The notes below the pieces were generated by a model. That model was given only the letters and a program-made list of their open reading frames with translations. It was not told where the DNA came from and searched no databases. DNA of 64,000 bases from Escherichia coli (GTDB lineage: Bacteria; Pseudomonadota; Gammaproteobacteria; Enterobacterales; Enterobacteriaceae), in the NCBI RefSeq assembly GCF_024502345.1, contig NZ_JALDNN010000001.1, one strand, 5' to 3'. The position numbers and the translations under genes were made by a program. Shown one piece after another: positions 47,273 through 47,653 of this stretch. Numbering within the stretch: position 1 is the first letter of the stretch; every line of letters begins with the position of its first letter.

Positions 47273-47290
47273 TGTCGCTTTCTGGCGACA
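47273..47290. promoter_or_regulatory. GlrR (QseF) activator binding site, TGTC-N10-GACA
   Basis: TGTCgctttctggcGACA, an exact TGTC-N10-GACA palindrome upstream of the glmY sigma54 promoter. Confidence 0.7.
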
Positions 47291-47335
47291 CTTAAATGAT
47301 TGATTTTATTGTAATCTAATAAGTTTATCTTAAGT

Positions 47336-47353
47336 TGTCTCTTTTTAGCGACA
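47336..47353. promoter_or_regulatory. GlrR (QseF) activator binding site, TGTC-N10-GACA
   Basis: TGTCtctttttagcGACA, second exact TGTC-N10-GACA palindrome, 63 bp downstream of the first. Confidence 0.7.
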
Positions 47354-47442
47354 CAGTGGCTGATTTACATTCAAATAGCGAAGAAGCCATAAATCCCTCA
47401 AAGCAACGTATAATCAGTACGTTACCAAACTATTTTCTTTAT

Positions 47443-47458
47443 TGGCACAGTTACTGCA
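47443..47458 (+). promoter_or_regulatory. Sigma54 (-24/-12) promoter of glmY
   Basis: TGGCACagttaCTGCA matches the sigma54 consensus TGGCAC-N5-TTGCA; GG and GC are 12 bp apart. Confidence 0.75.
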
Positions 47459-47469
47459 TAATAGTAAGC

Positions 47470-47653
47470 AGTGGCTCATTCACCGACTTATGTCAGCCCC
47501 TTCGGGACGTGCTACATAAAATTCGAATGACGCACAACAAGGTGCCTGCCGTCCAACTTCTGATATCAGCGTAGCTATATCAACCATCGGGCGAAACGTC
47601 GAGTTAGGCACCGCCTTATTCCATAACAAAGCCGGGTAATTCCCGGCTTTGTT
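47470..47653 (+). ncRNA. glmY: Small RNA GlmY (regulator of glmS via GlmZ/RapZ)
   Basis: Begins AGTGGCTCATTCACCGACTTATGTCAGCCCCTTCGGG about 12 nt after the sigma54 -12 element and ends at hairpin AAAGCCGGGTAATTCCCGGCTTT + GTTGT; about 184 nt; sits between purL and glrK as in K-12. Ends approximate. Confidence 0.8.

What the first reader, a model, noticed from the sequence alone, without database searches (positions are those of the whole stretch)
47273..47653. GlmY sRNA locus with sigma54 promoter and two exact TGTC-N10-GACA activator sites
Between the purL terminator and glrK the sequence shows two perfect TGTC-N10-GACA palindromes, a canonical -24/-12 sigma54 promoter (TGGCAC-N5-CTGCA) and then about 184 nt ending in a strong terminator hairpin. 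This is the architecture described for the GlmY sRNA, driven by the adjacent GlrK/GlrR two-component system. No ORF-based annotation would capture it, and the track's glrK start at 47649 would run into the GlmY terminator.
Basis: partly seen in the sequence, partly recalled or inferred. Interest (0 to 1): 0.45.

Follow-up and report, generated by a model that had tools for sequence, protein, structure and literature searches.

The report
Known GlmY small RNA gene

Summary
The finding is correct and already known. Window 47470..47653 (+) is glmY. It maps base for base onto the curated K-12 ncRNA b4441 (184 nt, one substitution), and Rfam RF00128 scores 147 bits (threshold 33) over 47470..47617, the 148-nt processed form. 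It lies between purL and glrK/qseE-qseG-glrR/qseF-glnB.

The promoter matches the published architecture:
- Three, not two, exact TGTC-N10-GACA GlrR sites (47240, 47273, 47336). These are the only three in the 64 kb.
- Two perfect IHF-consensus sites flanking the proximal GlrR site (47293-47305 on the minus strand, 47412-47424 on the plus strand).
- A sigma-54 element TTGGCACAGTTACTGCA (47442-47458), identical to the ChIP-seq-mapped glmY site.
- The overlapping sigma-70 -10 box CATAAT (47457-47462).

The RNA ends in a 12-bp terminator hairpin (47625-47653). It shows no glmS-leader complementarity, unlike GlmZ, which fits GlmY's role as a RapZ decoy.

TTG 47649 is only the mechanical longest-ORF start and lies inside the terminator. 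RefSeq starts glrK at TTG 47712, and the published qseE transcription start is about 47687.

Corrections to the finding: the third GlrR site lies upstream of the stated start, and the overlapping sigma-70 promoter was not mentioned. Novelty: none.

The parts
43267..47154 (+). purL (phosphoribosylformylglycinamidine synthase), the upstream neighbour
   Evidence: NCBIfam NF003672, 2272 bits. Annotated as purL in K-12 and in strain ABWA45.
47213..47234 (+). purL intrinsic terminator hairpin followed by a T-run
   Evidence: The terminator scan finds 8 pairs with 5 GC, then TTTTGTGT.
47240..47257 (.).
   Evidence: Exact TGTC-N10-GACA match. Three such sites are described in PMC3045617. It is taken as ABS1 because the IHF sites flank the proximal site, which the paper calls ABS3.
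47273..47290 (.). GlrR/QseF binding site ABS2 (TGTCGCTTTCTGGCGACA), -197..-180
   Evidence: Exact match. Its centre is 33 bp from ABS1. It is reported as essential for the sigma-54 promoter in K-12.
47293..47305 (-). IHF consensus site (AATCAATCATTTA on the minus strand), between ABS2 and ABS3
   Evidence: Perfect WATCARNNNNTTR match, one of six in the 64 kb. The two differences from K-12 fall on N positions. The paper describes IHF sites flanking ABS3.
47336..47353 (.). GlrR/QseF binding site ABS3 (TGTCTCTTTTTAGCGACA), -134..-117
   Evidence: Exact match. Invariant in 9 diverse E. coli strains. Its centre is 63 bp from ABS2.
47412..47424 (+). IHF consensus site (AATCAGTACGTTA), -58..-46, between ABS3 and the promoter
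   Evidence: Perfect consensus match. Invariant in 9 strains.
47442..47458 (+). Sigma-54 promoter TTGGCACAGTTACTGCA (GG at 47444-47445, GC at 47456-47457)
   Evidence: The string is identical to the ChIP-seq-mapped sigma-54 site assigned to glmY in PMC4591121.
47457..47462 (+). Overlapping sigma-70 -10 box CATAAT (-13..-8)
   Evidence: Sequence read. PMC3045617 names CATAAT as the characterised -10 that overlaps the -12 element. The promoter is weak: the generic sigma-70 scan does not call it.
47470..47653 (+). glmY primary transcript, 184 nt
   Evidence: Maps exactly onto K-12 ncRNA b4441, with 183 of 184 bases identical; 47523 is T here and A in K-12. One variable position in 9 strains.
47470..47617 (+). 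Processed, active 148-nt GlmY: stem-loop 1 at 47471-47535 and central stem-loop 2 at 47541-47612
   Evidence: Rfam RF00128 covers model positions 1-163 of 163 over exactly this stretch, 147.1 bits. Helices come from the MFE fold. The 148-nt form is described in PMC4152352. The GCCTTAT motif lies at 47613-47619.
47625..47653 (+). glmY intrinsic terminator: 12-bp stem (47625-47636 / 47642-47653) with a 5-nt loop; the 3' arm is CCCGGCUUUGUU and the downstream DNA continues GTAT
   Evidence: MFE fold. The 3' end coincides with the K-12 annotation. The generic terminator scan did not call it; I attribute this to its T-tail criterion (see Tried and rejected).
47654..47711 (+). glmY-glrK spacer, which holds the separate qseEGF sigma-70 promoter. 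The published transcription start is 25 bp upstream of the start codon, about 47687.
   Evidence: PMC6075780. The window coordinate is inferred from that distance. Candidate hexamers TTGTAT (47652-47657) and TAGCAT (47675-47680) are my own reading of the sequence.
47712..49139 (+). glrK/qseE sensor kinase, 475 aa, TTG start
   Evidence: RefSeq start in K-12 and in eight other strains. Histidine-kinase family hits. The longest-ORF start at 47649 lies in the glmY terminator and upstream of the qseE transcription start.
49298..50017 (+). qseG lipoprotein. This is the longest ORF; the K-12 annotated length implies a start at 49304.
   Evidence: NCBIfam NF007997, 360 bits. K-12 gene length.
50007..51341 (+). 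glrR/qseF, the sigma-54-dependent response regulator that binds the ABS
   Evidence: NCBIfam NF011695 GlrR equivalog, 982 bits against a cut-off of 763.

Best explanation
Window 47240..47653 is the E. coli glmY locus, consisting of its upstream activating region, its dual promoter and the 184-nt sRNA gene.

Transcription: phosphorylated GlrR (QseF), encoded 2.4 kb downstream and controlled by the kinase GlrK (QseE) and the lipoprotein QseG, binds the three TGTC-N10-GACA sites at -230 to -117. IHF bends the intervening DNA at the two sites flanking ABS3. GlrR's AAA+ domain then opens the sigma-54 holoenzyme complex at TTGGCAC-N4-CTGCA. A weak sigma-70 promoter, whose -10 box CATAAT overlaps the -12 element, gives basal transcription from the same start site.

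RNA function: the transcript ends at the hairpin 47625-47653 and is trimmed to 148 nt. This form mimics GlmZ and sequesters the RNase E adaptor RapZ when glucosamine-6-phosphate is scarce. Full-length GlmZ therefore survives, pairs with the glmS leader and raises GlmS synthesis.

Shown here: the sequence identity, the motifs, the fold, the gene context and the absence of glmS pairing. Taken from the literature, mostly on K-12: protein binding, processing and the RapZ decoy mechanism.
For: - Rfam GlmY scores 147.1 bits against a gathering score of 33, over the full model, E = 8e-33.
- The RNA has the same ends as the curated K-12 glmY b4441 and is 183/184 identical to it.
- The locus is present in 5425 of 5426 complete E. 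coli genomes, always on the chromosome.
- The three TGTC-N10-GACA sites are the only ones in the 64 kb and sit 33 and 63 bp apart, roughly 3 and 6 helical turns.
- Two of the six perfect IHF-consensus sites in the window flank ABS3, as published.
- The sigma-54 motif is identical to the ChIP-seq site listed for glmY.
- The CATAAT -10 box is as published.
- The neighbours are purL, GlrK, QseG, GlrR and GlnB.
- In 9 diverse strains the RNA has 1 variable position in 184 nt, against about 21 per 100 nt in the upstream spacers. ABS3 and IHF-b are invariant. The sigma-54 -24/-12 element itself does not vary; the 21-nt sigma-54/sigma-70 promoter block has one variant, a 1-nt deletion in the CATAAT -10 box of one strain.
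- The fold is z = -5.5 against shuffles and ends in a 12-bp terminal hairpin.
- There is no glmS-leader complementarity: -12.1 kcal/mol, with 198 of 300 shuffles as good. K-12 GlmZ gives -19.2, with 11 of 300 as good.
- The mechanism comes from PMC4152352, PMC7073468 and PMC6075780.
Against: Nothing substantive.

- The sigma-54 motif on its own is not rarer than chance at one mismatch.
- The generic sigma-70 and terminator scans do not call the sigma-70 promoter or the glmY terminator. This is consistent with a weak promoter; the terminator miss I attribute to the scan's T-tail criterion.
- Expression, processing and protein binding were not measured for this strain.
- The strain differs from K-12 at -2 (G instead of C) and at +54 (U instead of A), with untested and probably neutral effect.
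Confidence: 0.98

Rival explanations
1. The RNA is the paralogue GlmZ, or works like GlmZ as a direct base-pairing activator of glmS, rather than being the decoy GlmY.
For: GlmY and GlmZ belong to one Rfam clan, and a lower-scoring overlapping clan match was suppressed. The two cores are 106 of 162 aligned columns identical.
Against: - GlmY is the best-scoring clan member.
- The locus lies between purL and glrK, whereas K-12 glmZ lies between aslA and hemY.
- Its 3' part pairs with glmS -41..-19 at only -6.0 kcal/mol and the whole RNA at -12.1, no better than shuffles. GlmZ reaches -19.2 through its linker.
Confidence: 0.005
2. glmY here is mainly the 5' leader of a glmY-glrK-qseG-glrR operon transcript, produced by read-through of an imperfect terminator. 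The sRNA would be cut out of the long RNA, as reported for Proteus mirabilis.
For: - P. mirabilis glmY-qseEGF is reported as one operon and lacks a glmY terminator.
- The generic terminator scan does not call the glmY hairpin.
- The genes are co-oriented and only 58 nt apart.
Against: - A 12-bp GC-rich hairpin ends exactly at the annotated 3' end.
Confidence: 0.015
3. The region encodes a small protein, from one of the mechanical ORFs 47335-47574 (+, 79 aa) or 47480-47710 (-, 76 aa), rather than or in addition to an RNA.
For: Both ORFs appear in the six-frame list.
Against: - Neither ORF matches any NCBIfam family, even at E <= 1.
- The plus-strand ORF starts at a TTG inside ABS3, 135 nt upstream of the transcription start, so its start is not on the glmY transcript.
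- The region scores as a structured RNA under a covariance model.
- Curated K-12 annotation has no CDS here.
Confidence: 0.005

Closest known systems
E. coli K-12 glmY (b4441; formerly sroF/tke1), Rfam RF00128
   Same: Same 5' and 3' ends, 183 of 184 bases identical, same flanking genes, same three ABS, same two IHF sites, and the same sigma-54 and sigma-70 promoter sequences.
   Different: One base in the RNA: +54 is U here and A in K-12, in an internal loop of stem-loop 1. Position -2 is G here and C in K-12. There are 14 further substitutions between the purL stop codon and the promoter; all fall in spacers except two, which lie on N positions of the IHF-a site.
GlmZ (b4456, Rfam GlmZ_SraJ), the paralogous sRNA
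   Same: Homologous 5' and central stem-loops, with about 65% identity over the processed cores. It is bound by the same adaptor, RapZ.
   Different: GlmZ carries a 15-nt glmS-pairing site in the linker before its terminator, which this RNA lacks. In E. coli, glmZ has only a sigma-70 promoter and sits between aslA and hemY.
Other bEBP/IHF-dependent sigma-54 promoters (for example glnAp2 with NtrC, pspA with PspF)
   Same: A distal enhancer made of palindromic activator sites, an IHF-assisted DNA loop, and a GG-N10-GC core promoter.
   Different: Here the product is a non-coding RNA, and the sigma-54 core overlaps a sigma-70 promoter that uses the same start site. This is a published peculiarity of glmY in Escherichia, Klebsiella, Salmonella and relatives.

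Membership tests
GlmY sRNA (Rfam RF00128) | Covariance-model score above the curated gathering threshold over the full model | tested here: met
   147.1 bits against 33; model positions 1-163 of 163; E = 8e-33.
GlmY sRNA (Rfam RF00128) | Positional orthology: located between purL and glrK(qseE)-qseG-glrR(qseF), on the same strand as glrK | tested here: met
   NCBIfam identification of the neighbours, plus K-12 and RefSeq annotation.
GlmY sRNA (Rfam RF00128) | Sequence identity and shared ends with the experimentally characterised K-12 gene | tested here: met
   183 of 184 bases identical; the ends coincide at 47470 and 47653.
GlmY sRNA (Rfam RF00128) | Three-part architecture: 5' stem-loop, central (RapZ-binding) stem-loop, short linker and intrinsic terminator | tested here: met
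   MFE fold with helices at 47471-47535, 47541-47612 and 47625-47653; z = -5.5. It agrees with the Rfam consensus structure line.
GlmY sRNA (Rfam RF00128) | No complementarity to the glmS 5' UTR, which distinguishes it from GlmZ | tested here: met
   Duplex energy -12.1 kcal/mol, within the shuffle background (198 of 300 as good). GlmZ gives -19.2, with 11 of 300 as good.
GlmY sRNA (Rfam RF00128) | 3' processing to about 148 nt, RapZ binding, and accumulation on GlcN6P depletion | not testable with these tools
   Only indirect evidence: the Rfam match ends at nt 148 (47617) and the GCCTTAT motif lies at 47613-47619. The mechanism comes from PMC4152352 and PMC7073468.
GlrR/QseF-activated sigma-54 promoter | Core GG-N10-GC element at the right distance from the transcription start | tested here: met
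   GG at 47444-47445 and GC at 47456-47457, that is -26/-25 and -14/-13. The sequence is identical to the ChIP-seq site TTGGCACAGTTACTGCA.
GlrR/QseF-activated sigma-54 promoter | Three TGTC-N10-GACA activator sites more than 100 bp upstream | tested here: met
   Sites at -230..-213, -197..-180 and -134..-117; the only three matches in the 64 kb.
GlrR/QseF-activated sigma-54 promoter | IHF sites (WATCARNNNNTTR) flanking ABS3 | tested here: met
   Perfect matches at 47293-47305 (minus strand) and 47412-47424 (plus strand).
GlrR/QseF-activated sigma-54 promoter | Actual binding of GlrR, IHF and sigma-54, and dependence of transcription on them | not testable with these tools
   Demonstrated for K-12 in the literature. 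Not measured for this strain.
GlmZ sRNA | glmS-pairing site in the linker between stem-loop 2 and the terminator; location between aslA and hemY | tested here: not met
   The 3' part gives a duplex of only -6.0 kcal/mol, against -19.2 for K-12 GlmZ. The synteny is different.

The most novel reading that the evidence does not exclude
The only novel readings left open are small. First, the lineage-specific variants of this strain (G at -2, U at +54, spacer changes between the ABS) might shift the sigma-54/sigma-70 balance or RapZ affinity. Second, natural ABS2 half-site and -10 polymorphisms seen in other E. coli strains could mean that GlrR control of glmY is being tuned or lost within the species. 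Nothing in the window itself suggests a new element.
Probability: 0.03. Interest if true: 0.15.

Novelty: already known. Interest (0 to 1): 0.05.

Why it matters
It does not add new biology. GlmY, its dual sigma-54/sigma-70 promoter, the GlrR and IHF sites and the RapZ decoy mechanism have been characterised experimentally in E. coli K-12 since 2007-2010.

There are two practical points.
- Automatic (PGAP) RefSeq annotation of strains that match 100% over the query leaves this 558-bp purL-glrK intergenic region (47155-47711) without a feature. ORF-only tracks therefore miss the gene.
- A naive longest-ORF call for glrK (TTG 47649) intrudes into the glmY terminator. The correct start is TTG 47712.

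Tried and rejected
- The generic sigma-70 promoter scan found nothing in 47100-47800. The published sigma-70 promoter is weak, with CATAAT as its -10 box. The best -35 candidate at 17-nt spacing is only TTTCTT at 47434-47439, so the scan's silence is not informative.
- The generic terminator scan called the purL terminator but not the glmY one. By my reading, once the stem absorbs CUUUGUU the remaining tail (GTATCTGA) has too few T's for the scan's criterion. The MFE fold shows the 12-bp hairpin clearly.
- The sigma-54 consensus search at one mismatch is not enriched over chance, so I did not use it as stand-alone evidence.
- I considered GlmZ identity and rejected it on the Rfam clan competition, the synteny and the duplex test.
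- I considered coding potential for the two overlapping mechanical ORFs and rejected it.
- I considered operon read-through and rejected it for E. coli on published RT-PCR and reporter data.
- I deliberately did not spend the large genome, metagenome or protein-database scans, structure prediction or a custom covariance model. The identification does not depend on them, and a 39-genome comparison is already published.
- The paper's numbering of IHF site 1 and site 2 could not be resolved because figures are not held. I call the sites IHF-a and IHF-b.

Full report
**Observation.**
- Exact TGTC-N10-GACA palindromes lie at 47273-47290 and 47336-47353.
- These are the only three matches in the 64-kb window. 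About 0.89 are expected by chance, and all three fall within 114 bp, for which a rough scan estimate gives P of about 1e-6.
- Their centres are 33 and 63 bp apart, roughly three and six helical turns.
- TGGCAC-AGTTA-CTGCA lies at 47443-47458 with canonical GG-N10-GC spacing. At one mismatch this motif is no rarer than chance in the window (2 found, 2.04 expected). Its significance therefore rests on position and on external evidence, not on the motif alone.

**Identity of the RNA.**
- Rfam release 15 gives a full-length GlmY_tke1 (RF00128) match at 47470-47617: 147.1 bits against a gathering score of 33, E = 8e-33.
- The window is E. coli chromosome. A 651-nt query around the locus is 100% identical to several complete genomes, and the locus is present in 5425 of 5426 complete E. 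coli genomes, always chromosomal.
- In K-12 MG1655 the curated annotation has ncRNA glmY (b4441, 184 nt) between glrK and purL.
- Aligned to K-12, its ends map exactly to window 47470 and 47653. There is one difference inside the RNA: 47523 is T here and A in K-12, in an internal loop of stem-loop 1.
- The 184-nt RNA folds at -64.2 kcal/mol (z = -5.5, 0 of 200 shuffles as stable). It forms a 5' stem-loop (47471-47535), a central stem-loop (47541-47612), a 12-nt linker and a 12-bp terminator hairpin at 47625-47636 / 47642-47653.
- The Rfam match ends at nt 148, the published length of the processed, active form (PMC4152352). The motif GCCTTAT lies at 47613-47619.

**Promoter architecture.** PMC3045617 describes the E. 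coli glmY promoter as follows: three GlrR sites (TGTCN10GACA) more than 100 bp upstream, two IHF-like sites (WATCARNNNNTTR) flanking ABS3, a conserved sigma-54 promoter, and a sigma-70 -10 box CATAAT overlapping the -12 element, with both promoters using the same start site. All of this is present in the window.
- ABS1-3 lie at -230..-213, -197..-180 and -134..-117.
- Perfect IHF-consensus matches lie at 47293-47305 (minus strand) and 47412-47424 (plus strand). These are two of only six perfect matches in the 64 kb, and they sit on either side of ABS3.
- CATAAT lies at 47457-47462, which is -13..-8.
- The 17-mer TTGGCACAGTTACTGCA (47442-47458) is identical to the sigma-54 ChIP-seq site assigned to glmY in PMC4591121. 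That study also reports glmY among the few genes up-regulated on sigma-54 overexpression.

**Context.** NCBIfam identifies the neighbours as PurL (43267-47154), a sensor histidine kinase (47712-49139; family-level hits only, none reaching an equivalog cut-off — the name GlrK/QseE comes from the RefSeq annotation), QseG (to 50017), the GlrR equivalog (50007-51341, 982 bits against a cut-off of 763) and GlnB.

**The glrK start.**
- The mechanical longest ORF starts at TTG 47649, inside the 3' arm of the glmY terminator.
- RefSeq starts glrK/qseE at TTG 47712 in K-12, in a strain with 100% identity over the query, and in seven further diverse strains.
- PMC6075780 states that qseEGF has its own sigma-70 promoter immediately downstream of glmY, starting 25 bp upstream of the start codon (about window 47687). 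It also states that read-through from the glmY promoter virtually does not occur.

**Conservation within the species.** I aligned the window with K-12, UTI89, O157:H7, O103:H2 and four other strains spanning 96-100% identity.
- The 184-nt RNA has one variable position.
- ABS3 and IHF-b have none. The sigma-54 -24/-12 element itself is unchanged, but the 21-nt promoter block has one variant, a 1-nt deletion in the CATAAT -10 box of O103:H2 strain FWSEC0007.
- The two variable positions in IHF-a fall on N positions of the consensus.
- The unassigned upstream spacers carry 31 variable positions in 147 nt.

This is the pattern expected for a functional RNA with a functional proximal enhancer and promoter.

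**GlmY or GlmZ.** The two sRNAs are paralogues in one Rfam clan.
- Rfam ranks GlmY first.
- The locus is the glmY locus, not the aslA-hemY locus of glmZ.
- A duplex test against the K-12 glmS leader (-41..-19) gives -12.1 kcal/mol for this RNA, and 198 of 300 shuffles do as well. K-12 GlmZ gives -19.2, through its linker, and only 11 of 300 shuffles do as well.

The RNA therefore lacks the pairing site, as expected for the decoy GlmY.

[quoted passage not shown] The 184-nt RNA is trimmed to 148 nt. When GlcN6P is limiting, this form accumulates and sequesters the RNase E adaptor RapZ. That protects GlmZ, which then activates glmS translation (PMC4152352, PMC7073468, PMC6075780).

**Rivals.** I considered three rival readings and reject all of them.
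- GlmZ identity, as set out above.
- A glmY-qseEGF operon leader, as in Proteus mirabilis. This is contradicted for E. coli by the strong hairpin and by published data.
- A small protein from one of the two overlapping mechanical ORFs. There are no family hits, and the plus-strand ORF starts upstream of the transcription start.

**Verdict.** Corrections: there are three ABS rather than two, so the locus starts at about 47240; both IHF sites are present; and an overlapping sigma-70 promoter exists. The element is already known in full detail, so interest is low. The only practical value is for annotation, because PGAP records omit glmY and longest-ORF calls for glrK overrun its terminator.

Noticed in passing
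L005 3445-4212 (E. coli EPSSH018, NZ_CP125889.1); insertion point corresponds to window 47635-47643: One of 5425 genomes carries a 768-bp IS1A element inserted in the loop and 3' arm of the glmY terminator, with a 9-bp target duplication GGTAATTCC. It separates glmY from the qseE promoter region. The 148-nt processed part of GlmY is intact.
   Followed up: partly
L007 and L008 (strains 2017.01.04CC and 1504D004), positions corresponding to window 47273-47290: ABS2, reported as essential for the sigma-54 promoter in K-12, has natural half-site changes in some strains: TGTC to CGTC in 1504D004 and GACA to GACG in 2017.01.04CC. In my 9-strain sample it is more variable (4 positions) than ABS1, which is reported as dispensable (1 position), or ABS3 (0 positions).
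   Followed up: partly
L010 (O103:H2 FWSEC0007), corresponding to window 47460: A 1-nt deletion turns the sigma-70 -10 box CATAAT into CATAT and shortens the distance from the sigma-54 GC element to the start site by one base.
   Followed up: partly
window 47155-47711; L002: The RefSeq/PGAP annotation of strain ABWA45, which is 100% identical over the 651-nt query, has no feature between purL and qseE. glmY is annotated only in the curated K-12 record. All eight other strains fetched without an IS1 insertion (ABWA45 and the seven spread hits H22, H28, H29, H37, H40, H41, H49) showed only purL and/or qseE.
   Followed up: yes
window 47176-47197: Between the purL stop codon and its terminator there is a REP-like half-element (GCCCGGATGCGGCATTAAGC). 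I recognise it from memory of the REP consensus and have not tested it.
   Followed up: no
window 7731-12739 (+): A complete rRNA operon: 16S at 7731-9272, a tRNA at 9358-9430, a StyR-44 match at 9511-9619, 23S at 9627-12529 and 5S at 12624-12739.
   Followed up: no
window 1166-1291 (-), 4597-4735 (+), 24463-24505 (+), 30972-31803 (-), 34586-34800 (+), 38213-38289 (-): Other Rfam matches above the gathering score: the Phe leader, Ysr155/RyfD, ES036 (CssrF), AsrC (antisense of rseC), rncO (the rnc leader) and OhsC (the antitoxin sRNA of the shoB-ohsC pair). All are known E. coli elements that ORF-based annotation would also miss.
   Followed up: no
window 47652-47680: Candidate hexamers for the published qseEGF sigma-70 promoter are TTGTAT (47652-47657) and TAGCAT (47675-47680), with a 17-nt spacer and the expected start near 47687. 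The -35 candidate begins inside the last two bases of the glmY terminator stem. This is my own reading of the sequence; the generic scan did not call it.
   Followed up: no
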